A stretch of DNA of 64,000 bases from Gammaproteobacteria bacterium (GTDB taxonomy: Bacteria; Pseudomonadota; Gammaproteobacteria; GCA-001735895): contig JAOTXY010000010.1 of assembly GCA_029862125.1 (NCBI GenBank), positions 41 to 64,040 on the forward strand. The letters run 5' to 3'. Positions 40,557 through 52,010 of the stretch are shown here, in pieces (position 1 is the stretch's first letter; the number at the start of each line of letters is the position of its first letter). The notes below the pieces were generated by a model, which saw only the letters and a program-made list of their open reading frames with translations, was not told where the DNA came from and made no database searches. A program made the position numbers and the translations under genes.

Positions 40557-40706
40557 CCATGTACTTGACCCTCATCAAGGTTGCCCGCTGATTTTGAAGA
40601 TTTAATAGTAGATTAATCTAACAGAAGATTAGTCGCTACAAGTTTGTCATCTGAAACAGACGAATTTAAACCAAATAACATCAGAAAATTTAAGAGGAGC
40701 ATCATC

Positions 40707-41024
40707 ATGAGCCGTTCACCTAGAATCGCAATAAGCGGGATTGTCGCCCTGTTAAGCGGGGGCCTCGGTCTCAGCCAGAGTTATGCCGCCGATGCGGTGC
40801 CGCGAGCCGAGTTACTGGCGTCCATGTGTATCACCTGTCACGGCGCTAATGGTAAAGGCGCCAAGCCTATGCCTGGGATTAACGGCGAGGAACCCGCCGA
40901 TTTTATCGACCTGATGCAGGCCTTCGCCAACGGTGAAGAGTCCACCAGTATCATGGATCGCCATGCCCAGGGTTATACCGAGGCCGAGCTCAAGCTGCTC
41001 GCCGAATATTTCAGCAAACAATAA
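40707..41024 (+). CDS. Monoheme c-type cytochrome, flavocytochrome c sulfide dehydrogenase cytochrome subunit-like
   Basis: ATG 40707 with AGGAG RBS. Signal peptide. Single CITCH heme motif. 105 aa. Stop 16 nt before the FccB gene. Confidence 0.7.
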   Translation: MSRSPRIAISGIVALLSGGLGLSQSYAADAVPRAELLASMCITCHGANGKGAKPMPGINGEEPADFIDLMQAFANGEESTSIMDRHAQGYTEAELKLLAEYFSKQ

Positions 41025-41039
41025 TAGAGGAGAAAGACA

Positions 41040-42323
41040 ATGAAAGCATATGATCGCAGAGACTTTCTCAAGGTAATCGGAGCCGCGGGCGCAGTAACCG
41101 GGTTGGGTAGCCTGGTGTGGCCAATGGAAGCCCTGGCCGCAGCCAGCGGAAAAGTGGTTGTCGTTGGTGGCGGTTTCGGTGGCGCGACCTGCGCCCGGTA
41201 TCTGAAACGCTGGGGACCCCAACTCGATGTCACCCTGGTTGAGCGCGATACCAGCTATATCACCTGCCCGTTTTCCAACGAGGTGCTCTCGGGTAATCTT
41301 GACATCAGCAAGATTACCCACGACTACGGCAATATCCACGCTCAGGGTATCAATGTGGTGCACGACGAGGTCACCGCTATCGATGCCGGTGGAAAATCGA
41401 TCAACCTCAAGTATGGCGGTTCGATGAAATTCGATAAATTGGTTGTATCACCGGGTATCGCGTTCAAGTGGGGTGCGATTGAAAATGACCAGGCGGCGGT
41501 GCAACGGGCAATGCCGCACTCATGGAAAGCCGGCGAACAGACGCTATTGCTGAGAAAACAGTTGCAGGCTATGCGCGACGGCGGCACCGTCATCATCGTG
41601 CCACCGAAGAAACCGTTTCGCTGTCCACCCGGACCTTATGAACGCGCCAGCCTGATTGCACATTATCTCAAGTGGAACAAGCCGAAGTCCAAAATCCTGA
41701 TTGTCGATGCCAACCCGACCCATTCCAAGCAGGCTGCGTTTCACGAAGCCTGGAACAAGGAATACGGTAACATGATCGAATGGATCAAGGATACCGACGG
41801 TGGCGTCATTACCAGAGCGGATCCGGGCAACATGACCCTGCGCAATGATTTTGGCGACGAATACAAGGGTGATGTAATCAACCTGATCCCCTATCAAAAA
41901 GCGGGCGAACTGGTTGAAACCGCCGGCCTGACCAACAAGGATGGCTGGTGTACCGTCGATATGGGCACTTTTGAATCGGCAAAGGCCAGGGATGTACATA
42001 TCATCGGTGACGCCTGCGTCGCCGGTGCCATGCCAAAATCTGGCCACTCGGCGGCTTCGCAGGCGAAGAATTGTGCTGCTGCGATCGTTTCCATGCTCGC
42101 CGGAGATACACCACCCGAACCGACCTATGCCAACACCTGTTACAGCCTGATCGGACCCAAGTACGGTATTTCGGTGGCCGCAGTTTACCGCCTTAAAGAC
42201 GGGGTCATCGTCAAGGTTTCCGGTGGAGTCAGTAAAGTAGGCAACAAGGATCGGGTACATGAGAACGAAGCCAAGTATGCCCGCGGCTGGTACAAGTCAA
42301 TCACCTCCGACGTGTTCGGTTGA
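41040..42323 (+). CDS. fccB: Flavocytochrome c sulfide dehydrogenase flavoprotein subunit
   Basis: Tat signal RRDFLKVIGAAGAVTGLGS. FAD motif VVVVGGGFGGATCARYL. FCSD-type motifs RCPPGPYERASLIAHYLK and CVAGAMPKSGHSAASQAKNCA. Length is 427 aa. Confidence 0.85.
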   Translation: MKAYDRRDFLKVIGAAGAVTGLGSLVWPMEALAAASGKVVVVGGGFGGATCARYLKRWGPQLDVTLVERDTSYITCPFSNEVLSGNLDISKITHDYGNIHAQGINVVHDEVTAIDAGGKSINLKYGGSMKFDKLVVSPGIAFKWGAIENDQAAVQRAMPHSWKAGEQTLLLRKQLQAMRDGGTVIIVPPKKPFRCPPGPYERASLIAHYLKWNKPKSKILIVDANPTHSKQAAFHEAWNKEYGNMIEWIKDTDGGVITRADPGNMTLRNDFGDEYKGDVINLIPYQKAGELVETAGLTNKDGWCTVDMGTFESAKARDVHIIGDACVAGAMPKSGHSAASQAKNCAAAIVSMLAGDTPPEPTYANTCYSLIGPKYGISVAAVYRLKDGVIVKVSGGVSKVGNKDRVHENEAKYARGWYKSITSDVFG

Positions 42324-42394: not shown

Positions 42395-42862
42395 ATGAGA
42401 AGACGAACTTTATTGCAAAACCTGTCTGCGGTTGCAGCTACCTGGGTGGCCGGCGGTAGCGGTATATTTTATTCAATGCTGGCGAACGCAGCGTCGAGAC
42501 CAGATGCGGCGTTTCTGGCCAAGGATGCCGACACGGCGATGATGGAGGTACTGGGTACCCGGGAAGCCACCGCCAGCGACCAAATCAAGCTCGATGCCCC
42601 GCTGCAGGCGGAAAACGGCGCGGTGGTTCCAATCGAGGTATCGACCACCCTGCCGTCTCCCGAATCTGTCGTCGTGGTGGTGCCTAATAACCCGACACCG
42701 TTGTTGAGCGTCATAGAGACCACGCCCCGTACCGGCAACTACTTCAGAATGCGTATCAAAATGGCGGGCACCGATAACGTCATGGTATATGTCAAATCAG
42801 AAGGCCAGTGGTACGTCACCTCGCAGGAAGTGCGAGTTGCGATCGGCGGCTGCGGTGGTTGA
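42395..42862 (+). CDS. soxY: Thiosulfate-oxidation carrier protein SoxY
   Basis: Tat signal MRRRTLLQNLSAVAATWVAGGS. 155 aa. Ends with the invariant SoxY C-terminal motif VAIGGCGG*. Confidence 0.9.
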   Translation: MRRRTLLQNLSAVAATWVAGGSGIFYSMLANAASRPDAAFLAKDADTAMMEVLGTREATASDQIKLDAPLQAENGAVVPIEVSTTLPSPESVVVVVPNNPTPLLSVIETTPRTGNYFRMRIKMAGTDNVMVYVKSEGQWYVTSQEVRVAIGGCGG

Positions 42863-42891
42863 TATATCGATTTTGCTGAGGAATTTGCACT

Positions 42892-43206
42892 ATGGCGAAA
42901 AGACGTACAAGGCTCAAAGCGGAAATAATGGGCAGTGGTATCCGCGCGACCTGTTTAATCAAACATCCGATGGAAACGGGCAATCGGCTCGATTCTGACG
43001 GCAACAAGATCCCGATTCACTACATCAAGTACGTGAAGTTTTCGGTCAACGGCGAGCATGTCGGCACGCTCAACCTCGGTCCCGGGGTGTCGGCAGATCC
43101 TTATCTATCGTTTGATATTGCCGACGTCAAGGTAGGTGATACGCTCGCCTTGCAGTGGGAAGACAACAAGAGCGAATCGGACACCGTGGAACGCGTCGTC
43201 AAGTAG
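42892..43206 (+). CDS. soxZ: Sulfur-compound chelating protein SoxZ
   Basis: 104 aa. Immediately downstream of soxY. Conserved IKHPMETG and PIHYI blocks of SoxZ. Confidence 0.85.
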   Translation: MAKRRTRLKAEIMGSGIRATCLIKHPMETGNRLDSDGNKIPIHYIKYVKFSVNGEHVGTLNLGPGVSADPYLSFDIADVKVGDTLALQWEDNKSESDTVERVVK

Positions 43207-43241
43207 GCGTTTCAGTGTTTACTGAAGGGGGGCATAGAGTT

Positions 43242-43967
43242 ATGCGTGAATCGGGACTTTTGGTTATGTTGCTGGCGGTTATTATCCACCCCGGAAACGG
43301 GTTAGCTCAGCAAGGCTCGGACACGGAGTTGCCGCCCAGCGTGTCGGCGGAACTCGCGCCTAATTATGAGTCCGGCCCACGTCTGATCCAGGATTTGTCC
43401 GATGAGGCGCAAAAAATTCGCCGCCAGCAATTGATGCGGCAATCGAATCGCGTCATGCCACCGGTACCGCGGGCGCAAAAAAAGGCGCTTTTTGACATGA
43501 TGACCCCCATGAGCAGTATGTCGATGCGCGATCTGTTCAATTTCATGACCGATAAAATCAAGGCCGATCCCGAATTGACATTCGACGACGTCGTCGAGGC
43601 GATGGAACTCAAGGCCAATGAAGTAAATTTCAAAAAAGTGGGGCATAACGAATTCTGGCGGGACGTCAGCGCTTTCTCCGGTTTGCCGACTCTGCGGCTC
43701 GAGATACTCCAGTTCTGCGACGCCTCGGTCGGCCGGCGCATGCTCGATTACAGTCCCGAATTTTCGATTTTCATTCCCTGCCGGATTACGGTCATGGAGG
43801 ACGCCACCGGCGAAATCTGGTTGATGACGCTGGACTGGGACGTCAGCTGGCTGGCGCGAGCCTGGCAGCCTGGATCCCGGCTGGATCCGGAGCTGGTCAA
43901 GGATGCAATCCGTATCCGCGATGCGATGACCGAAATCATGCAGGCCGGCGCCTCCGGAGACTGGTGA
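43242..43967 (+). CDS. Hypothetical periplasmic protein, possibly DUF302-like C-terminal domain
   Basis: ATG 43242 with purine-rich RBS. Signal peptide LLVMLLAVIIHPGNGLA. C-terminal block FSIFIPCRITVMEDATGEIWLMTLDWD resembles the DUF302 core. The assignment is tentative. Confidence 0.35.
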   Translation: MRESGLLVMLLAVIIHPGNGLAQQGSDTELPPSVSAELAPNYESGPRLIQDLSDEAQKIRRQQLMRQSNRVMPPVPRAQKKALFDMMTPMSSMSMRDLFNFMTDKIKADPELTFDDVVEAMELKANEVNFKKVGHNEFWRDVSAFSGLPTLRLEILQFCDASVGRRMLDYSPEFSIFIPCRITVMEDATGEIWLMTLDWDVSWLARAWQPGSRLDPELVKDAIRIRDAMTEIMQAGASGDW

Positions 43968-44030: not shown

Positions 44031-44819
44031 TTGAAAGGTGACAGCTTGCAGACACTGGCTTTTCATCGCTCGCTAGCATATTGCGTGAGTGTCCTGTTAC
44101 TCGCCACATTGGTTTTTGCGGCCCGTGCCGAAATCCATTCGACCCTTGAAATCAACGACGAAATCGAAATTGATATTGTCACATTCGGCGAACCGGCGAA
44201 GACCGGCATTATCTGGTTTGCCTGCAGACAGGGGGAGGATGCGATCGAGTTTGAAACCGCAAGAAAGCTGGTAAGCAGGGGGTATCAGATTTATTTCCCC
44301 GATATGTTGAGTGCGCATTTCCTGTCGTCCCTGCCGTCGAATATCGCGCGGATTCCGGCTGCCGAGGTTGTCACTGTGATCAGGCATATCATCGATACCT
44401 CGACTGCCGAGCGATTGTTTCTGCTGGCCGGCGCACGCGCCGCGGTACCGATAATCCGCGGCCTGGCCGATAAAAATTTGCAACAGATGGACTCGAAATT
44501 GAAAGGTGCATTATTGATCACTCCCCGAATTTACAAAACAATGCCCGATCCCGGCTCCGAACCGGTTTATATCGATGAAACTGGATTGTCAATCCACCCA
44601 ATCCTGGTACTGGAAGGCGAACGTACCCCTAACCGTTGGGGATTGCCGCATTTGGTAGCAGCGCTAACAAAATCAGGCAGCCGGGTGCAAACCGATTTGA
44701 TTGACGGAGTGCGCGGCTACTTTTATTTACGCGACAACCAGACCCCGGCCGAGATGGAATTAACCCGCCAACTCGATTCATTGATTCATGATAATTTGCA
44801 GAAACTCGGAGCAATTTGA
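44031..44819 (+). CDS. Hypothetical secreted protein (262 aa)
   Basis: Signal peptide SLAYCVSVLLLATLVFAARA. No recognised domain. 4-nt overlap with the downstream TlpA gene suggests co-translation within the sulfur cluster. Confidence 0.4.
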   Translation: MKGDSLQTLAFHRSLAYCVSVLLLATLVFAARAEIHSTLEINDEIEIDIVTFGEPAKTGIIWFACRQGEDAIEFETARKLVSRGYQIYFPDMLSAHFLSSLPSNIARIPAAEVVTVIRHIIDTSTAERLFLLAGARAAVPIIRGLADKNLQQMDSKLKGALLITPRIYKTMPDPGSEPVYIDETGLSIHPILVLEGERTPNRWGLPHLVAALTKSGSRVQTDLIDGVRGYFYLRDNQTPAEMELTRQLDSLIHDNLQKLGAI

Positions 44820-45337
44820 GAATGGGTTTTTACCGGCACCTGATATTTTGTCTGTCGCTGGCTTTACTGGGTCAGCAGGCGCAGGCTGTCGCGGGTCAGT
44901 TAAAAGAATATTGGGGTGATATGACGTCACCCGAGATTGAATTACCCGATTTGCAGGGGCGGCAACATTCGCTGGCCGACTATCACGGCAACGTCGTGCT
45001 GGTACAGTTCTGGGCTACCTATTGCACGCCCTGTCGTACCGAAATGCCGACCATGAATCGGCTGATTAAAAAGATGCGAGGTAAGCCGTTCAAAATCGTC
45101 ACCGTCAACATGGCCGAATCACCCGGGCAGGTGCGGCAGTTTTTACAGGAAGTGCCGGTCGACTTTCCGGTGCTAATGGATAGCGATGGCAGCACCCTGA
45201 GTCGATGGAAGGTTTTTGCCGCTCCAGCAAATTTTATTCTCGACAAGCAGGGTAAAATCACCTTTACGCTGTACGGTGCAATTGAATGGGATTCGGATGA
45301 AATGGTCAGTCGGTTAAACGCGCTGAGCGAAGAATAA
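44816..45337 (+). CDS. TlpA/ResA-family periplasmic thiol-disulfide oxidoreductase (SoxW-like thioredoxin)
   Basis: Signal peptide. Thioredoxin CxxC active site WATYCTPCRTEMP. Length is 173 aa. Confidence 0.8.
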   Translation: MRMGFYRHLIFCLSLALLGQQAQAVAGQLKEYWGDMTSPEIELPDLQGRQHSLADYHGNVVLVQFWATYCTPCRTEMPTMNRLIKKMRGKPFKIVTVNMAESPGQVRQFLQEVPVDFPVLMDSDGSTLSRWKVFAAPANFILDKQGKITFTLYGAIEWDSDEMVSRLNALSEE

Positions 45338-45352
45338 GTTCATCCGGCAGAC

Positions 45353-45970
45353 TCAGTTAACCGAGGCATAGAAATTCAGCAGCGCCTCGATGTCCTCCTG
45401 ATTCAGCTTCTTCAGCCGGTTTGACATGCGCCGTGACACGAGGCGTTTGCCGCTGAGAATATTTTTGAACTGCAGCCTCAGGTATGGCGTCCATTGCCCG
45501 GCGAGGATGTTCTTGTCATCTGTGGGTTCGGTACCGTTTTTCAGGTGACATCGTTCGCAATGCTTCTCGTGTAGAATTGCGCCGCGACTGGCAAGTTCCG
45601 GATTAAACGCCTGACTTCTTGGGATATACTTCCGCTTGGAAAAATAATTCGCCAGCCCCTTGAGATCCGCGTCGCTCAATTGCTTCGCAATGTTGATCAT
45701 AACGGTTTCGGGCTCGTTGGGCTGCTGAAATTCAATTGCGATACGCCTGTTTTCCCGATACTCGTCCATGGTGTAGAGAAATCCCGCGTAGGAAAAACCG
45801 GAGATGCTCGGGAAAATAGGTAATACGCTGTTACCATCCTGTCCATGACAGATCTCGCAACGTATTACCAGGTCGTCAGTATCTTCGGCAGGCCCGGGAG
45901 CGGTAAATAGCGCAAGGCCTACCGTTAACAGGTAAGCGGGAACACGGTGCATGAGCCGGATCACAATCAT
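45353..45970 (-). CDS. Diheme c-type cytochrome
   Basis: Signal peptide. Two heme motifs, CEICH and CERCH. Length is 205 aa. Confidence 0.7.
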   Translation of the reverse strand: MIVIRLMHRVPAYLLTVGLALFTAPGPAEDTDDLVIRCEICHGQDGNSVLPIFPSISGFSYAGFLYTMDEYRENRRIAIEFQQPNEPETVMINIAKQLSDADLKGLANYFSKRKYIPRSQAFNPELASRGAILHEKHCERCHLKNGTEPTDDKNILAGQWTPYLRLQFKNILSGKRLVSRRMSNRLKKLNQEDIEALLNFYASVN

Positions 45971-46151: not shown

Positions 46152-46691
46152 TTATTGTGCGGGCATCGGCAGCGGCATCTGGGTGCCAGGCACCATGCCC
46201 CATGGCCAGCTGTGCATGCCCGGTAGCGGATCACCCGGATTTAGGCCGTACTTCTCTTCGACCGCGCGCTGCCAATATTCGGCGGCTTTCGGGTCCGATA
46301 TCGACGCCATCATGTCGTTGTAGGCTTCAGGATTAGCCATCGTCATCGGATTCATCATCGCCGAGACGTAGGGGCCGAAGAATTGCTGATAGCGGCCCAC
46401 GTCTTCGTTGTCATGACAGGCCGCGCAGCTGCTGATCGGATTGGCCCAGATGCGCGGATCCATCGACATCGTCATCATCATGGCCCAGCTGTTGGGATCC
46501 ATTGTTTTTGCTATGGTTTTAGCGGCCCGGTTAACTTCGCTGGAACCAGACGCTGCCTGTTGGTCCTGCGCCTGCAACGGATTGCTGGCCAATACCGTCA
46601 CCAACAATACTAAAAATAAAATACCGGCTAAACCCTTACTCTGCGTCGCATGAAACCATTGGTTAAGCTTGATCATAGCGAAATCCATCAC
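46152..46691 (-). CDS. Met-rich monoheme c-type cytochrome-like secreted protein sharing the MNP-x-x-Y motif with the downstream repeat protein
   Basis: Signal peptide. Single CAACH motif. Met-rich segments AMMMTMSMDPRIWANP and AMMNPMTMANPEAYNDMM. C-terminal MHSWPWGMVPGTQMPLPMP. Overlaps the cytochrome c5 gene by 4 nt. Confidence 0.55.
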   Translation of the reverse strand: MMDFAMIKLNQWFHATQSKGLAGILFLVLLVTVLASNPLQAQDQQAASGSSEVNRAAKTIAKTMDPNSWAMMMTMSMDPRIWANPISSCAACHDNEDVGRYQQFFGPYVSAMMNPMTMANPEAYNDMMASISDPKAAEYWQRAVEEKYGLNPGDPLPGMHSWPWGMVPGTQMPLPMPAQ

Positions 46692-47044
46692 TGTGAATTG
46701 TGGATGATGTAGTCGACCGCGGCCCTAACCTGATCGTCGGTGAGGTTCCAGTTGCCGCCGCGCGCCGGCATGCGTTTGCCGGAACTGCCGGTCCAGCCAT
46801 TAATTGCGTGCCGATACAAAACTGTCCTGCCGCTATCGATACGCGCCTTCCAGGCATTTTTATCACCGATTCGCGGCGCGCCACCAACGCCCGGCCAGTG
46901 GCAAACCGTACAGGTACGATTAAATACGCCCCAGCCTTCTTTCAAACGTTCGGTCGAGGGTTGCTCCTCGGCAAACGCAGGCCCTGTTAACGACGCCAGG
47001 CCAACGCCGAGTCCAAGAATCATTGCTTGTAAATGATGGTTCAT
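46688..47044 (-). CDS. Cytochrome c5 family monoheme cytochrome
   Basis: Signal peptide. CTVCHWPGVGGAPRIGD followed by a conserved R..GGNW.LTDD.V..AV.YI region. Length is 118 aa. Confidence 0.8.
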   Translation of the reverse strand: MNHHLQAMILGLGVGLASLTGPAFAEEQPSTERLKEGWGVFNRTCTVCHWPGVGGAPRIGDKNAWKARIDSGRTVLYRHAINGWTGSSGKRMPARGGNWNLTDDQVRAAVDYIIHNSQ

Positions 47045-47104
47045 GCGTCTTCTCGCTGCCTTATCTCCGTCGTTGCAATGGCCCGCCTCGATATACCAGT
47101 TTGA

Positions 47105-47830
47105 TCACTGGCCGGATTCCGGCTGGGTCGGCGGTCGCGGCATGTAGGTCGATGGATTGAATGGGTTAAAAAATGACTGCCCCTGGGTTGCCTGACCGGG
47201 TACCTGTCCCGGTTGCATCATCTGGGTCCAGGCGTTGGGGTCAAACCAGTTGAGCGCCGGCGCCTGTGCCGTTGTCGGGAACGTGTAAGCCGCTGGATTC
47301 ATCCATTGCATGTAAGTCGCGGGATTCATGTACATCGCGTAATTCCCGGGATTCATCCATTGCATGTAGGTCGAGGGATTCATGAAGGTCATGTACTCCA
47401 TCGGATTCATCATCGCCATATAGTTCGAGGGATTCATGAAGTTCATGTAAGACGCTGGATTCATCCAGCTCATCCAGTTGTTGGGATTGGCGAATTGCAT
47501 GTAGAACTGCGGCGTCATGAATTGACCGTAAGTCGCCGGGTTCATGAAGGCACCATAGGTGCTGGGCCGCATGAAAGCCGACCAGCCTCCTGGCGTCGCC
47601 AAATTCAGATGCGACGGGGCACCGGGCATGGCAGGCATTCCTGTCATACCTGGCATCGTCGTCGCACCTGGCATCGCCATCCAGGATGACGAATCGAACC
47701 AGTTGGGGACAACGGGTTGAGCCTGAGCCGCAGCTGTACCCGTCGGTAACTTAAGGTACAAAGATGTTATCGGTGGTGCCGCCCACAGCACGCTAATCAA
47801 TGCGAGGGCTGCAAATGTTTTCCTGATCAT
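47105..47830 (-). CDS. Secreted Met/Asn/Pro/Tyr-rich protein with 11 tandem nonapeptide repeats ([F/W]MNPxxYMx), function unknown
   Basis: Signal peptide AALALISVLWAAP. MPG-rich linker (MPGATTMPGMTGMPAMPGAP). Then FMRPSTYGA FMNPATYGQ FMTPQFYMQ FANPNNWMS WMNPASYMN FMNPSNYMA MMNPMEYMT FMNPSTYMQ WMNPGNYAM YMNPATYMQ WMNPAAYTF, then a Gln/Pro-rich tail. Uninterrupted ORF with consistent codon usage. Confidence 0.6.
   Translation of the reverse strand: MIRKTFAALALISVLWAAPPITSLYLKLPTGTAAAQAQPVVPNWFDSSSWMAMPGATTMPGMTGMPAMPGAPSHLNLATPGGWSAFMRPSTYGAFMNPATYGQFMTPQFYMQFANPNNWMSWMNPASYMNFMNPSNYMAMMNPMEYMTFMNPSTYMQWMNPGNYAMYMNPATYMQWMNPAAYTFPTTAQAPALNWFDPNAWTQMMQPGQVPGQATQGQSFFNPFNPSTYMPRPPTQPESGQ
47279..47575 (-). 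repeat. 27-bp tandem repeat array (11 units) inside the CDS, encoding the MNPxxYMx nonapeptides
   Basis: Visible in DNA as a reiterated gggattcatgaaNgtcatgtaNNNNNN-like unit. Units diverge at wobble and variable-residue positions. Confidence 0.7.
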
Positions 47831-48158
47831 GGGAACCTCCAGCTAAGCCTCAATTGACGTAATCGATAACGCCACTACGGTTATTCCAATAATTTAAACC
47901 GTATTGGTTGCCAGATATATACCCCACAAGATATATGGTCTTCTATCGAAGGAGTTTTGATCGAATATCGCGCGCATAATTGCTGGTGGAACGCCGGTAG
48001 GTCGAAAATCAAGTTCGGTCAATAGCCACAATTTGTGCGATTTTTTTGATCTGCGTCAACTAGGAAGGGATAAGTATCCGTTTAATAAAATTGAAATTGG
48101 CGTGGATGTAATTACGTCAATCAATCAAAACAATTAATCTCAATCTTGGGGAGCTTTA

Positions 48159-49941: not shown

Positions 49942-51312
49942 TTAACTGTAAAACATGTCGCGGTACATGCCCTCGGCCCAGGCCAGGCTGGCCTGGCCAC
50001 CCTGTGTATCCCAGCGCTCGATTAAATGCGTACGGTCGAACGCGAACTCGCCGGTTTTGTCGCTGAACTTGTAGTAGGTAATGATGCTCATCGCGCGCAG
50101 CGGATCTATGTCGACCGCGGAAAAACACATGGTTTGCGGGCTGCGCCAGCGCACCTCCTTGTCGAGTGCGTGCGCGGCGACCACCTCGGCGACATACTGC
50201 GCTTCCGAGTGTGCGGTATGGCCGCCCTTGGAAAAGGGTTGCGAACGCGAATCGCCGGTCACGTAAACGCGTTCGTCGTCGAGCAGGTGATAACGAAACG
50301 GGTCGGTATTGGCCGCCTTTTGCGGGCTGATCGGACTGGCGATGCCGTTATCCTCGATCAGGCGCGACGCGCGCACCGGCGGGTAAATAATCGCGTCGTC
50401 GAAATCGTACTCGTCAAACTCGGTTTCGACGCGGCGGCCTTCAATGTCGATGTTGGTGATCTCGGAACTCGACAGGTACTCGATGTAATCGCCGTAGAGC
50501 TCGGCAAAGGCGCGCGCGAAACCGGCCTTCTTGATGCGAATTTCGGCATTCATGTCGAGCAGCAGAATTTTTGCGCGCACGCGCTGGCGCTTGAACAGAG
50601 CCGCCACCATGCAGGCGCGCTCATAGGGCGCTGCCGTACAGCGAAAATCGCCGTTAGGCACGTTGAGCAGGAAGGTGCCGCCGCTGAAGCGATGAATCTT
50701 GCGTTTAATTGTCAACAGTTCCGAGCTCGAGACGAAACCGCCGGGATATCGGTGAAACAGCAGGTTTTGCGCCTCGGTATCCTCGATCCCGATGCGCCCG
50801 TAGTCGTATTCGATGCCGGGCGCGAGCACCAGATAATCGTAGTCGACGAAACCTTTTTCGGTGTAGACGCGGCGGGTCTCGCGATCGAAACCGAGCACGG
50901 TCGCCTGCATGAAGTGATAATCGTGGTTATTCGCAGCATCGAAAAAACTGTGACTCAGAAAATCGAGATCGACCTGGTCGGCGAGCCATGAATTGCTAAT
51001 TGGAAAGGACACGAATGCCGACTGTCGATCGATCAATATTACGTCAAAGCCGGGATTGAAAAGGCGCAGGTACTTTGCCATCGTCAGCCCCGACCAGCCG
51101 CCACCGACGATCACGACGCGTGCCCCCCGGGGCCTTGGCAAGGTGGCCTTGCGCAACAGGCTGTTGAGCGCGGGCGCCTGGCACATTTCGTTATTATCCG
51201 CGCCCGTAGCGACGTTGGCGCTAACCGTAGTCGCCGCGAGCGCGACGCCGGAAGCCTGCAGAAATCTGCGTCGCTCGAGATCGGTGTTTTCTTTCATCTT
51301 TGGAGCCTTCAT
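49942..51312 (-). CDS. FccB/SoxF-family flavoprotein sulfide dehydrogenase (second copy), Tat signal
   Basis: Tat signal RRRFLQASGVALAATTVSA. FAD motif VVIVGGGWSGLTMAKYL. FCSD-like RCTAAPYERACMVAALFK, parallel to FccB RCPPGPYERASLIAHYLK. Length is 456 aa. Confidence 0.75.
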   Translation of the reverse strand: MKAPKMKENTDLERRRFLQASGVALAATTVSANVATGADNNEMCQAPALNSLLRKATLPRPRGARVVIVGGGWSGLTMAKYLRLFNPGFDVILIDRQSAFVSFPISNSWLADQVDLDFLSHSFFDAANNHDYHFMQATVLGFDRETRRVYTEKGFVDYDYLVLAPGIEYDYGRIGIEDTEAQNLLFHRYPGGFVSSSELLTIKRKIHRFSGGTFLLNVPNGDFRCTAAPYERACMVAALFKRQRVRAKILLLDMNAEIRIKKAGFARAFAELYGDYIEYLSSSEITNIDIEGRRVETEFDEYDFDDAIIYPPVRASRLIEDNGIASPISPQKAANTDPFRYHLLDDERVYVTGDSRSQPFSKGGHTAHSEAQYVAEVVAAHALDKEVRWRSPQTMCFSAVDIDPLRAMSIITYYKFSDKTGEFAFDRTHLIERWDTQGGQASLAWAEGMYRDMFYS

Positions 51313-52010
51313 TTGAAATCGGGATTACGCCAGGCCGTATCAGGCGCGAGATCGGATGCTGGCACCGGCAGATGCGATACGTAGTTCAACACCTGGTCGA
51401 AATCCTGTTCCGACAGCGTCGTGAACAGGTTGGCCATCACCGGTGCGACCCGGCGCAGGCGGTCGCGCGCCAGGCGCGCCTGGCGTTTCATGTAGGTATA
51501 GTGCTGTCCTTGCAGGCGCGGATAGGACAGCTCGTTTTTGCCTTCGCCGTACTGCCCGTGGCAGCTAATGCAGTATTGCCGGTAGAGTCTTTTACCGGAT
51601 TCGTATTCTTCGCTGTCGACGGGCCATGGTCCGCGGTTGTGCATAGGGTTCATCGGCAATGTCGAAATGTAGGCAACCACGTCGCTCAGATTCTGGTAAC
51701 CGCCGATGGTGCGTTCCTGCACGAACGGCTGCATCGTTGGGTTGGCGCGCTGCCCGCTGCGTATATCGAGTAATTGTTTCATCAGCACGTTGACATGCTG
51801 CCCGGCGATCTGCGGATAGGTACCGTCGTCGTTGCCCCAGGCCTCGGGCAGGTGGCAGCGCGCGCAGATTTCGAAACTGCGACGACCGTTGTCGAGGTCG
51901 GGTGTGAATTCGAGCACCACGCGAATCGGCTCGACGGCAGCCAGTTTCGACGAAAATACCAAAACCAGTATGCAAAGGCTGTAGCAAAGCGTTATATGTA
52001 TCCTGTTCAT
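51309..52010 (-). CDS. Diheme c-type cytochrome, flavocytochrome c cytochrome subunit-like (FccA/SoxE-like)
   Basis: Signal peptide. CARCH and CISCH motifs. Lies directly upstream of, and overlaps by 4 nt, the FccB/SoxF-like gene. Confidence 0.7.
   Translation of the reverse strand: MNRIHITLCYSLCILVLVFSSKLAAVEPIRVVLEFTPDLDNGRRSFEICARCHLPEAWGNDDGTYPQIAGQHVNVLMKQLLDIRSGQRANPTMQPFVQERTIGGYQNLSDVVAYISTLPMNPMHNRGPWPVDSEEYESGKRLYRQYCISCHGQYGEGKNELSYPRLQGQHYTYMKRQARLARDRLRRVAPVMANLFTTLSEQDFDQVLNYVSHLPVPASDLAPDTAWRNPDFK

What the first reader, a model, noticed from the sequence alone, without database searches (positions are those of the whole stretch)
46152..47830. Secreted protein built of 11 tandem [F/W]-M-N-P-x-x-Y-M-x nonapeptides, paired with a Met-rich monoheme cytochrome carrying the same motif
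The gene at 47105-47830 encodes a signal peptide and an MPG-rich linker. Eleven consecutive 27-bp repeats then give FMNPxxYMx units, followed by a Q/P-rich tail. Two genes away, co-oriented, is a monoheme CAACH protein (46152-46691) containing AMMNPMTMANPEAYNDMM and similar MPG/Met-rich tails, with a cytochrome c5 gene between them. So this is a small family of Met/Asn/Pro/Tyr-motif proteins inside a periplasmic sulfur/cytochrome cluster. I recognise no characterised domain with this repeat. Regularly spaced Met pairs (MxxM) with aromatic residues are reminiscent of Cu(I)/Ag(I)-binding Mets motifs (Ctr1, CusF, PcoC/CopB). Equally, periodic Met/Tyr could act as a periplasmic redox buffer, a heme/cytochrome docking scaffold or an Msr substrate sink. 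All of these are hypotheses.
Basis: partly seen in the sequence, partly recalled or inferred. Interest (0 to 1): 0.8.

Follow-up and report, generated by a model that had tools for sequence, protein, structure and literature searches.

The report
Secreted Met-rich nine-residue helical repeat protein
This is a real, conserved gene for a secreted protein made of twelve 9-residue methionine-rich mini-helices. It belongs to a rare, unannotated family that sits beside c-type cytochromes and sulfur-oxidation genes in uncultured marine bacteria, and its function is unknown but most likely concerns sulfur handling in the periplasm.

Summary
ORF 47105-47830(-) has a Shine-Dalgarno site and a signal peptide, and it carries 12 prolines spaced exactly 9 residues apart. 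Eleven of these units are canonical [F/W]-M-N-P-x-x-Y-M-x units and one is degenerate. The reading frame is under purifying selection.

About 145 homologs exist, falling into 224 clusters among 1.84 billion representative proteins. All are unnamed and come from marine Gammaproteobacteria MAGs. No Pfam, NCBIfam or PDB relative was found. AlphaFold2 predicts one short helix per unit with pLDDT about 90, and this fold matches nothing in the PDB.

The neighbouring CAACH protein belongs to a second unannotated family that carries the same M-[D/N]-P-x-x-[W/Y] units around its heme site.

The new result is contextual. In distant lineages the repeat protein recurs with soxYZ, a long DUF302 protein, the Met-rich monoheme cytochrome, further Met-rich repeat proteins, Spy/CpxP-like proteins and periplasmic thioredoxins. 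No cop, cus or msrPQ genes were seen. Met-poor relatives keep the fold and still sit beside a cytochrome c, a short apparently cytoplasmic DUF302, rhodanese, DsrE and TusA.

My best guess is a periplasmic solenoid that binds or coats zero-valent sulfur downstream of SoxYZ, at about 0.35. A Cu(I) sponge, a methionine oxidant sink and a cytochrome scaffold remain possible.

The parts
47105..47830 (-). Repeat-protein gene ('rep', 241 aa), including the stop codon.
   Evidence: ORF. 145 homologs. Third-codon-position bias against orthologs.
47836..47840 (-). Shine-Dalgarno GGAGG, 5 nt upstream of the ATG.
   Evidence: Read directly from the sequence.
47717..47830 (-). Signal-peptide region (about residues 1-38: MIRK + hydrophobic core + AQA). 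It contains no Cys, so this is not a lipoprotein.
   Evidence: Sequence. The same N-terminal architecture occurs in all homologs. The cleavage site is inferred; no predictor was run.
47681..47704 (-). N-terminal NWFDSSSW motif, a degenerate capping unit.
   Evidence: N-x-F-D-P-x-x-W is conserved in the family.
47612..47680 (-). Met/Pro/Gly linker (MAMPGATTMPGMTGMPAMPGAPS). Its length varies between orthologs.
   Evidence: TRF 9-bp period at 47634-47656. L003 has extra MPGMTG units and L002 has fewer. pLDDT is below 50 here.
47279..47602 (-). Repeat core: 12 nonapeptide units with Pro every 9 residues. AlphaFold2 predicts one short helix per unit.
47228..47251 (-). C-terminal NWFDPNAW motif.
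   Evidence: Conserved in the family.
47108..47227 (-). Q/P-rich tail predicted to be disordered, ending in Gln.
   Evidence: Low pLDDT. The C-terminal residue is Q in 72 of 120 homologs.
46688..47044 (-). Monoheme class I cytochrome c (118 aa), the second gene of the co-oriented run.
   Evidence: PF13442 at 3.8e-11 and PF00034 at 7.7e-9. Synteny is conserved in L001-L004.
46152..46691 (-). Met-rich monoheme cytochrome ('cytM', 179 aa, 10.6% Met). Its start overlaps the stop of the upstream gene by 4 nt.
   Evidence: ORF. 59 homologs with no Pfam match. CxxCH and the flanking M[DN]Pxx[WY] units are invariant.
46413..46427 (-). Heme-attachment motif CAACH in cytM.
   Evidence: C89, C92 and H93 are invariant in 59 sequences. 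Coordinates.
45353..45970 (-). Diheme c4-type cytochrome (205 aa), the last gene of the co-oriented run, after a 181-nt gap.
   Evidence: Two cytochrome c domains. Weak PdsA-like hit. Synteny in L001-L004.
42395..43206 (+). soxY and soxZ, the sulfur carrier pair.
   Evidence: SoxZ matches PF08770 and TIGR04490 above the cut-off. soxY was assigned by tblastn cross-matches to SoxY-annotated genes.
43155..43967 (+). Long, secreted DUF302 protein with a Met-rich N-terminal extension. The true start is probably near 43242.
   Evidence: PF03625 at 1.7e-10. The gene recurs within a few kb of rep in 14-15 loci.
44031..45337 (+). A 262-aa hypothetical protein followed by a TlpA/ResA-like periplasmic thioredoxin. 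The two genes overlap by 4 nt.
   Evidence: AhpC-TSA, Redoxin and ResA hits. TlpA-like genes lie near rep in 19 loci.

Best explanation
**Shown**
- The gene encodes a Sec-exported, almost uncharged periplasmic protein.
- The repeat core is 109 residues: 18% Met, 13% Asn, 12% Pro and 10% Tyr, with only 2 charged residues.
- The core is built of 12 nonapeptides of the form [F/W]-M-N-P-x-x-Y-(M/A)-x.
- It belongs to a rare, unannotated family confined to marine sulfur-oxidiser-type Gammaproteobacteria.

**Predicted**
- Each unit forms one two-turn amphipathic helix. Asn acts as the N-cap and Pro is the first helical residue.
- Tyr, Met, Phe/Trp and Met lie on one face of the helix. Small polar residues (Ala, Thr, Ser, Asn, Gln) lie on the other.
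- The units stack, probably in pairs given the 18-residue super-period, into a miniature alpha-solenoid not seen in the PDB.

**Inferred function**
- The solenoid is an accessory of periplasmic sulfur oxidation.
- It is made together with three c-type cytochromes. It acts alongside SoxYZ, the long DUF302 protein and periplasmic thioredoxins.
- It uses its regular, uncharged, thioether- and aromatic-rich surface or groove to bind, solubilise or coat zero-valent sulfur (sulfane chains or S8) formed in Sox systems whose loci here show no SoxCD.
- In that sense it would work like a sulfur-globule or phasin-type coat protein rather than an enzyme.
- The Met-rich monoheme cytochrome would be the redox-active member of the same motif class.
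For: **The gene and the fold**
- Gene reality and periodicity.
- Helices are predicted with pLDDT about 90 over residues 80-180.

**Genomic context**
- In the window, rep is followed by cyt c, cytM and a diheme cyt c. These lie opposite soxY-soxZ-DUF302-x-tlpA and between two FCC loci and a rhodanese.
- The same partners recur in lineages only 41-52% identical:
  - L074 and L077: soxYZAB-trx-[Met-rich repeat protein]-[cytM-like]-DUF302-rep-[MDPxxY protein]-DsbC, with DsrE and TusA upstream; ATP-sulfurylase and Sulf_transp are also seen upstream in L074, whose flank reaches further.
  - L076: soxYZ-x-DUF302-[cytM-like, CANCH, 19% Met], opposite rep.
  - L079: [repeat protein]-cytM-DUF302-rep beside DsrE and a Trx-TolC-HlyD unit.
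  - L078: DUF302, DsrE and rhodanese-PDO about 4-6 kb away.
- A long DUF302 lies within a few kb of rep in 14-15 of about 80 loci. A cytM-like gene does so in about 10.
- DUF302 is already noted as a marker of sox clusters that lack soxCD (PMC5037610).
- A Met-poor member (P0185) is still followed by a diheme cyt c and a short, apparently cytoplasmic DUF302, with rhodanese, DsrE_2 and TusA nearby. The link to sulfur and cytochrome genes therefore does not depend on Met content.

**Features shared with sulfur globule proteins (PMC10386293)**
- A Sec signal peptide.
- A hydrophobic, low-charge composition.
- A repetitive sequence with regularly spaced prolines.
- Several paralogs per genome.
- An efflux-type exporter next to the gene.
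Against: - No experiment, transcript or proteome supports the proposed function.
- No sequence similarity to SgpA-D was tested.
- Known Sgps are smaller (11-13 kDa), are not encoded in sox clusters and are poorly conserved. This family is positionally conserved and is predicted to be well folded.
- About 25 loci carry rep with TlpA plus a Spy/CpxP-like gene, or with Trx-TolC-HlyD, and show no sulfur gene in the fetched flank. About 26 loci show no conserved context at all.
- Whether these organisms deposit S0 at all is inferred from their gene content.
- I could not read the model coordinates, so which residues are exposed is inferred from helical periodicity alone.
- No precedent exists for thioether-mediated binding of S0.
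Confidence: 0.35

Rival explanations
1. Periplasmic Cu(I)/Ag(I) sponge or chaperone. The M-x-x-M pairs formed by Met(+4) and Met(-2 of the next unit), together with nearby Trp/Tyr, would form thioether sites with cation-pi contacts like those of CusF or Ctr1. The Met/Pro/Gly linker would add further sites.
For: - Met at position -2 is 83-96% conserved in most units, and 6-7 MxxM pairs are present.
- Aromatic residues lie next to the Mets.
- The linker is Met-rich.
- In other loci the neighbours include TlpA-like thioredoxins (19 loci), Spy/CpxP-like 'Metal_resist' proteins with their own Met-rich N-termini (7 loci) and TolC/HlyD/RND genes.
Against: - No copA, cusABCF, pcoABCD, copCD, sco or pcuAC genes and no multicopper oxidase appear in any locus examined.
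- The RND pump scores best as multidrug type and is far below the CusA/CzcA cut-off.
- There are no His ligands.
- Full-length relatives with Leu, Val or Phe in place of Met exist; one of them (P0185) keeps a sulfur and cytochrome context. Met therefore behaves as a replaceable core residue.
Confidence: 0.15
2. Sacrificial methionine redox buffer, working like MrpX. Exposed Met residues would scavenge periplasmic oxidants generated during sulfide and oxygen chemistry, and would then be re-reduced by a periplasmic Msr or thioredoxin system.
For: - The protein has 12% Met overall and 18% in the core.
- It is periplasmic.
- Thioredoxin-fold neighbours are frequent.
- MrpX sets a precedent for this mechanism (PMC4436054).
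Against: - MrpX is 20% Met plus 44% charged residues and is encoded in a yedYZ (msrPQ) operon.
- Rep has about 3% charged residues and positionally conserved units, and it is predicted to fold.
- No Oxidored_molyb (MsrP) or MsrA/B family appears in the seven Pfam-annotated neighbourhoods.
- Met-poor relatives exist.
Confidence: 0.08
3. Scaffold or electron-relay partner for periplasmic c-type cytochromes. The solenoid would dock the co-encoded cytochromes or SoxYZ/DUF302. More radically, its regularly spaced Tyr, Trp and Met residues would support hole hopping between hemes.
For: - Rep is the first gene of a co-oriented run with three c-type cytochromes. This arrangement is conserved in L001-L004.
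- Other paralogs are followed by a diheme cytochrome c, with or without a cytochrome b (L016, L025/L075, L080).
- CytM places a heme inside the same motif class.
Against: - The cytochrome partners differ between lineages, and many loci have none.
- There is no cofactor-binding motif in rep.
- No structural or co-evolutionary evidence for an interface was obtained.
Confidence: 0.15
4. Not a functional protein: non-coding satellite DNA or a spurious low-complexity ORF.
For: - The region contains tandem 27/54-bp repeats.
- A long antisense ORF (47213-47689, + strand) exists.
Against: - A Shine-Dalgarno site and a signal peptide are present.
- Differences from orthologs are concentrated at third codon positions of the minus-strand frame. 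These are first positions of the antisense ORF.
- There are 145 homologs of constant architecture with units that align one-to-one.
- The DNA repeat copies are only 66-79% identical while the peptide motif is kept.
- The AF2 model is confident.
Confidence: 0.01

Closest known systems
Sulfur globule proteins SgpA-D of Allochromatium vinosum (PMC10386293)
   Same: - Sec-exported and periplasmic.
- Hydrophobic or low-charge composition.
- Repetitive sequence with regularly spaced prolines.
- Several paralogs per genome.
- Lineage-restricted.
- One member (sgpD) lies next to a hydrophobe/amphiphile exporter, much as the group-E paralogs lie next to Trx-TolC-HlyD.
- Found in sulfur oxidisers whose gene content suggests a zero-valent sulfur intermediate.
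   Different: - Sequence relationship was not compared directly.
- The mature protein is about 20 kDa, against 11-13 kDa.
- The period is a strict P-x8-P nonapeptide with Met, Asn and Tyr, rather than the irregular P-x2-P, P-x4-P and P-x5-P proline spacings reported for SgpD.
- The sequence is strongly positionally conserved and is predicted to fold.
- The gene lies inside sox/DUF302/cytochrome clusters.
- Localisation is unknown.
MrpX, the periplasmic methionine-rich peptide of Azospira suillum (PMC4436054)
   Same: A small secreted Met-rich protein, which sets the precedent for Met residues as the functional group.
   Different: - MrpX is 20% Met plus 44% charged residues and is encoded in a yedYZ operon under SigF control.
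- Rep is nearly uncharged, aromatic- and Asn/Pro-rich and periodic.
- No msrPQ gene was seen nearby.
Cu(I)-binding 'Mets-motif' proteins (CusF, PcoE/SilE, CopC/PcoC, the Ctr1 N-terminus); recalled from general knowledge, not retrieved here
   Same: Repeated MxxM spacing with adjacent aromatic residues, in the periplasm.
   Different: - No His residues.
- No copper-gene context.
- Met can be replaced by Leu, Val or Phe in relatives.
- The protein is a long regular solenoid rather than a small beta-barrel or a disordered peptide.
Short-period solenoid repeats (RTX GGxGxDxUx nonapeptide beta-roll; TPR-like alpha-hairpin solenoids); general knowledge
   Same: - A nine-residue period with an 18-residue super-period, as in RTX.
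- Stacked helix pairs, as in TPR.
   Different: - The fold is predicted to be all-alpha with no Gly/Asp Ca2+ motif, so it is not RTX.
- The helices are only about 7 residues long, against about 14 in TPR.
- No structural match was found.
DUF302 genes of soxCD-less sox clusters (PMC5037610)
   Same: The window and its distant relatives place a DUF302 gene beside soxYZ or soxAB, as noted for Acidithiobacillia and other chemolithoautotrophs.
   Different: - Here the DUF302 protein carries a long secreted Met-rich N-terminal extension.
- It is accompanied by the repeat protein and the Met-rich cytochrome. I found no description of that combination.

Membership tests
Any curated protein family (Pfam-A, NCBIfam) | A score above the family's curated cut-off. 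| tested here: not met
   For rep, the only hit is JmjN at 19.1 bits against a cut-off of 26, which is spurious, and there is no NCBIfam hit. CytM has no hit in either library.
Any solved structure (PDB) | Sequence or fold similarity. | tested here: not met
Sulfur globule proteins (Sgp) | Sec signal peptide and periplasmic location. | tested here: met
   All homologs share an N-terminal n-region, h-region and AxA-type segment. No predictor was run.
Sulfur globule proteins (Sgp) | Repetitive sequence with regularly spaced prolines and very hydrophobic or low-charge composition. | tested here: met
   Twelve prolines lie at 9-residue spacing and only 2 of 109 core residues are charged. The Sgp description is from PMC10386293.
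Sulfur globule proteins (Sgp) | Size of 11-13 kDa (SgpA-C) and sequence similarity to SgpA-D. | not tested
   I did not have the Sgp sequences, so no direct comparison was made. Mature rep is about 200 aa, which is larger.
Sulfur globule proteins (Sgp) | Physical association with sulfur globules and induction by sulfide or thiosulfate. | not testable with these tools
   This needs proteomics of purified globules, fusion-protein microscopy or transcriptomics.
MrpX-type methionine-rich oxidant sink | About 20% Met with about 44% charged residues, in a small unstructured peptide. | tested here: not met
   Rep has 12.4% Met, 6 charged residues among 203 mature residues, and a confident helical model.
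MrpX-type methionine-rich oxidant sink | Operon with msrPQ (yedYZ). | tested here: not met
   No Oxidored_molyb or Msr family appears in the Pfam tables of seven neighbourhoods or among the recurrent neighbour clusters.
Cu(I) Mets-motif proteins | MxxM/MxM motifs with aromatic or His co-ligands. | tested here: inconclusive
   MxxM pairs next to Trp/Tyr are present, but there is no His.
Cu(I) Mets-motif proteins | Genomic linkage to cop, cus, pco or sco genes. | tested here: not met
   None was found in about 80 loci. The RND pump is multidrug-like (and the Pfam tables listed above).
Cu(I) Mets-motif proteins | Ligand Met residues conserved across the family. | tested here: not met
   The median is 77% Met at position -2. 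Full-length relatives nevertheless exist with 0-25% Met there, replaced by Leu, Ile, Val or Phe.
RTX nonapeptide repeats | GGxGxDxUx consensus forming a Ca2+-binding beta-roll. | tested here: not met
   The consensus is [FW]MNPxxY[MA]x, and AF2 predicts helices only.
Class I c-type cytochromes (for the 46152-46691 gene) | A CxxCH heme-attachment motif. | tested here: met
   C89, C92 and H93 are invariant in 59 homologs.
Class I c-type cytochromes (for the 46152-46691 gene) | A recognisable cytochrome c domain or fold. | tested here: not met
   There is no Pfam, NCBIfam or PDB hit. The AF2 model is all-helical but low confidence (pLDDT 62), so no fold search was run.

The most novel reading that the evidence does not exclude
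The repeat protein would be one component of a previously unrecognised, multi-family 'thioether-rich' periplasmic module. The other components would be:
- its MMNP-repeat cousins;
- the MDPxxY proteins;
- the Met-rich monoheme cytochrome;
- the long DUF302 protein;
- the Met-rich Spy/CpxP-like proteins.

This module would form a proteinaceous matrix or solvent around SoxYZ. In it, sulfane sulfur released by SoxCD-less Sox systems would be received, kept soluble or templated as zero-valent sulfur, and electronically connected to cytochromes. That would make it the missing acceptor step between SoxY and sulfur globules, built on a new 9-residue alpha-solenoid fold.
Probability: 0.12. Interest if true: 0.9.

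Novelty: new variant of a known kind. Interest (0 to 1): 0.62.

Why it matters
- **An open question in sulfur oxidation.** It is not known how Sox systems that lack SoxCD pass SoxY-bound sulfane sulfur on to zero-valent sulfur deposits. The role of the sox-linked DUF302 protein is also unknown. This finding names a conserved, testable set of candidate partners in widespread uncultured marine sulfur oxidisers, including a gutless-worm symbiont.
- **A possible new fold.** The family offers a confidently predicted alpha-solenoid with a 9-residue period and no PDB counterpart.
- **A natural comparison.** The family contains both Met-rich and Met-poor versions of the same scaffold. This allows a direct test of whether the thioethers are functional (metal, sulfur or redox) or only structural.

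Tried and rejected
- **Pfam JmjN hit for rep.** It is below the cut-off and arises from the periodic motif, so I rejected it.
- **hhalign of rep against cytM.** Only the signal peptide and the N-terminal FDPxxW segment aligned. Homology of the two families beyond the shared motif is therefore not demonstrated.
- **AFDB50 fold search.** The library was not available.
- **Fold search for cytM.** I did not run it because the model is low confidence (pLDDT 62).
- **Long hits in the representative search** (P0194, P0269, P0278 and others). These are eukaryote-like 9-mer low-complexity proteins such as VCNPCTCVQ, not relatives.
- **Exact look-up of the window's protein.** It is not on record, so the source sample remains unknown.
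- **Sequence-motif literature search.** No paper prints these peptides.
- **CusA identity of the nearby RND pump.** Rejected.
- **Sigma-70 promoter and terminator scan.** Nothing exceeded the shuffled expectation in the rep-cyt235 intergenic region.
- **Antisense ORF 47213-47689(+) and its 'cluster 1' homologs.** This is a mirror image of the conserved repeat, and the codon-position pattern argues against it.
Full report
**1. The observation**

The ORF at 47105-47830 on the minus strand encodes 241 aa. A GGAGG Shine-Dalgarno site lies 5 nt upstream of its ATG.

From N to C the protein has these parts (coordinates):
- a signal-peptide-like N-terminus;
- an NWFDSSSW motif;
- a Met/Pro/Gly linker;
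- a repeat core, residues 77-184;
- a second NWFDPNAW motif;
- a Q/P-rich tail.

The core holds 12 prolines exactly nine residues apart, P80 to P179. These mark one degenerate unit followed by 11 canonical [F/W]-M-N-P-x-x-Y-(M/A)-x units. In 20,000 shuffles of the mature sequence the longest such proline chain was 7. TRF reports 27-bp periods with 66-74% matches and a better 54-bp period with 79% matches. The 54-bp period fits an 18-residue super-repeat in which W-type and F-type units alternate.

The DNA copies have diverged while the peptide motif is kept. Against the four closest orthologs, differences concentrate at third codon positions, for example 17/10/41 at positions 1/2/3. Those third positions are the first positions of the long antisense ORF, which is therefore an artefact. 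The window's background Met content is about 2.5%. Rep has 12.4% and the neighbouring cytochrome 10.6%.

**2. The family**

The word-indexed search found 145 homologs, all unnamed or labelled 'hypothetical'. The exhaustive profile search found only 224 clusters at 50% identity among 1.84 billion representatives. Its long hits are unrelated eukaryote-like 9-mer repeats.

In GTDB species representatives, 73 loci encode a relative. Nearly all are marine or sediment Gammaproteobacteria MAGs, including Arenicellales, Chromatiales and the Olavius algarvensis Gamma 3 symbiont. A genome often has two or three paralogs.

Units align one-to-one across 116 sequences. Averaged over units, Pro is 98% conserved, Asn(-1) 70%, Tyr/Trp(+3) 87% and Met(-2) 73%. 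Met(-2) reaches 83-96% in most units.

No Pfam, NCBIfam or PDB sequence relative exists. No paper in the library prints the motif.

**3. The structure**

From helical periodicity I infer, but have not measured, that Pro0, Tyr+3, Met+4, Phe/Trp+6 and Met+7 share one face. The small polar x residues (Ala, Thr, Ser, Asn, Gln, Gly) would form the other face. The core has only 2 charged residues in 109.

**4. The paired cytochrome**

The gene at 46152-46691 overlaps the stop of the upstream class I cytochrome c gene (46688-47044) by 4 nt. It has 59 homologs and no Pfam hit. CxxCH is invariant, as are the flanking M-D-P-x-x-W, M-D-P-R-I-W, M-N-P and N-P-x-x-Y units. Its AF2 model is all-helical but of low confidence.

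Distant versions carry still more of the motif. L076 encodes a 219-aa CANCH protein with 19% Met and runs of MMNP. L074 and L077 encode 142- and 146-aa versions.

hhalign did not demonstrate homology between rep and cytM beyond the N-terminus. I therefore call this a shared motif class, not a proven common origin. The MMNP-repeat proteins of L074 and L077, by contrast, do cross-hit rep family members.

**5. The genomic context**

The exact order rep - cyt c - cytM - diheme cyt c holds only in the closest relatives, L001-L004. The partners, however, recur in lineages 41-52% identical:

| Locus | Arrangement |
|---|---|
| L074, L077 | soxY-soxZ-soxA-soxB-Trx-[MMNP repeat protein]-[cytM-like]-DUF302-rep-[MDPxxY protein], then DsbC and a further rep paralog; DsrE and TusA upstream (in L074 also Sulf_transp and ATP-sulfurylase) |
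| L076 | soxY-soxZ-x-DUF302-[cytM-like] opposite rep, plus a second rep paralog and an LTXXQ protein |
| L079 | [repeat]-cytM-DUF302-rep next to DsrE and a Trx-TolC-HlyD unit |
| L078 | DUF302, DsrE and rhodanese-PDO nearby |

The window shows the same set: fccAB, soxY, soxZ, DUF302, a 262-aa protein and TlpA, opposite the cytochrome-rep run. A further cytochrome, a rhodanese and a second fccAB follow.

A long DUF302 lies within a few kb of rep in 14-15 of about 80 loci. DUF302 has been noted before as typical of sox clusters that lack soxCD (PMC5037610). No SoxC-type family appears in the Pfam tables of these loci.

Two other recurrent contexts exist:
- **TlpA group, about 13 loci.** TlpA is followed by a small divergent Cys protein and then rep. 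Some loci continue with a Spy/CpxP-like gene, a second rep, a diheme cyt c and a cyt b.
- **Efflux group, 12 loci.** Rep is followed by a thioredoxin-like gene, TolC and HlyD.

About 26 loci have no conserved neighbours.

**6.

*Copper.* No copper gene was seen anywhere. The RND pump near some paralogs is multidrug-like. Full-length Met-poor relatives exist, such as P0185 with Leu, Val or Phe at position -2. P0185 is still followed by a diheme cytochrome c and a DUF302, though there a short, apparently cytoplasmic 128-aa form, with rhodanese, DsrE_2 and TusA nearby. Met therefore behaves as a preferred but replaceable core residue, and the link to sulfur and cytochrome genes does not depend on it.

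*Msr sink.* MrpX is 20% Met plus 44% charged residues and is encoded in a yedYZ operon (PMC4436054). Rep is nearly uncharged and periodic, and no msrPQ neighbour was seen.

*Scaffold or redox relay.* This is compatible with the cytochrome neighbours but remains untested.

**7. The best explanation and its limits**

Context ties the family to periplasmic sulfur oxidation more firmly than to anything else. The physical features are those reported for sulfur globule proteins (PMC10386293):
- Sec export;
- almost no charge;
- regular proline spacing;
- several paralogs per genome;
- an adjacent exporter in some loci.

I therefore favour a role in binding, solubilising or coating zero-valent sulfur downstream of SoxYZ and DUF302. 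CytM would be the redox-active member of the motif class. My confidence in this mechanism is about 0.35.

The existence of the gene, the family and the predicted fold, and the association with sox, DUF302 and cytochrome genes, are well supported. The ligand is inferred. The rivals are Cu(I) binding (0.15), a cytochrome scaffold or relay (0.15) and a Met oxidant sink (0.08). Some probability remains for functions I have not thought of.

**8. Novelty**

The family, its predicted fold and the multi-family Met-rich module around SoxYZ and DUF302 are not described in any library or paper I could search. The general kind is known: a secreted, repetitive accessory protein of sulfur oxidisers, or a Met-rich periplasmic protein. 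I therefore rate it a new variant of a known kind, with a more radical reading not excluded.

Noticed in passing
rep and cytM homologs (P0001-P0179); L074-L079 module proteins: The C-terminal residue is Gln in 72 of 120 rep homologs and 56 of 59 cytM homologs. It is also Gln in most other Met-rich proteins of the same loci, which end in NQQ, ETQ, PQQ, AKQ, DKQ or SQQ. This could be a shared sorting or processing signal, or simply a consequence of the Q-rich tails.
   Followed up: partly
window 47612-47680 (-): The Met/Pro/Gly linker is a length-variable 9-bp microrepeat. Ortholog L003 carries extra MPGMTG units and L002 carries fewer.
   Followed up: partly
L074:10674-11393, L075:6318-7010, L076:601-1257, L077:8657-9415: A further unannotated secreted family of about 230-250 aa, with a KCSTEPVMWDTWM segment followed by MDPxxY/MNPxxY units. 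It lies next to rep in 13 loci and has no Pfam or NCBIfam hit.
   Followed up: partly
L074:7863-8606, L077:5777-6460, L078:11798-12586, L079:80-436: Extremely Met-rich (14-21%) secreted proteins with MMNPMTMMNP runs followed by FMNPxxY units. They lie between the sox thioredoxin and the cytM-like gene, and they cross-hit the rep family.
   Followed up: partly
L075:9396-9935, L076:6464-6823, L032, L007, L016, L018, L045: Spy/CpxP-like (LTXXQ / Metal_resist) periplasmic proteins lie adjacent to rep paralogs in at least 8 loci (7 by tblastn, plus L076 by Pfam). Those whose N-termini were read (L032, L075) are Met-rich (MPQQMMPQQMM).
   Followed up: partly
L075:7210-7551 (-) and 12 other loci: A small secreted Cys-containing protein (...CLEQVKGIMCPIFGQMPFFRD...FSCP...) is conserved and divergently placed between tlpA and rep. 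It has no family hit.
   Followed up: no
window 43155-43967 (+): The DUF302 protein has a long secreted N-terminal extension containing a conserved Met-rich segment (MMTPMSSMSMRDLFNFM) and two conserved Cys residues (QFCD, IPCR). The listed ORF start overlaps soxZ, and the real start is probably near 43242.
   Followed up: partly
window 40644-42323 (+) and 49942-52010 (-): Two separate flavocytochrome c sulfide dehydrogenase-like pairs, each a cytochrome subunit plus a flavoprotein, flank the cluster. The two flavoproteins are only about 26% identical.
   Followed up: no
window 44031-45337 (+); L078:1-1355: The 262-aa hypothetical protein overlaps the TlpA-like gene by 4 nt. In L078 a DUF3530/abhydrolase-like protein lies close to, but divergent from, a redoxin gene, which may be the same pairing. 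The window protein itself gave no Pfam hit.
   Followed up: no
L029 (CAVYIO010000007.1): One rep locus is labelled 'Rhodothermales bacterium' but comes from the same sample as a Gammaproteobacteria MAG (MFD03551) and has the typical group-E gene order. This is probably a binning error.
   Followed up: no
L011, L017, L020-L024, L026, L029, L031, L033, L034, L042: In about a dozen loci rep heads a conserved run with a thioredoxin-like (CPFC) gene, TolC and a short HlyD. A MotA/ExbB-like gene and two unannotated membrane proteins lie divergently upstream. In L079 the same Trx-TolC-HlyD unit lies beside the DUF302-rep-DsrE genes.
   Followed up: partly
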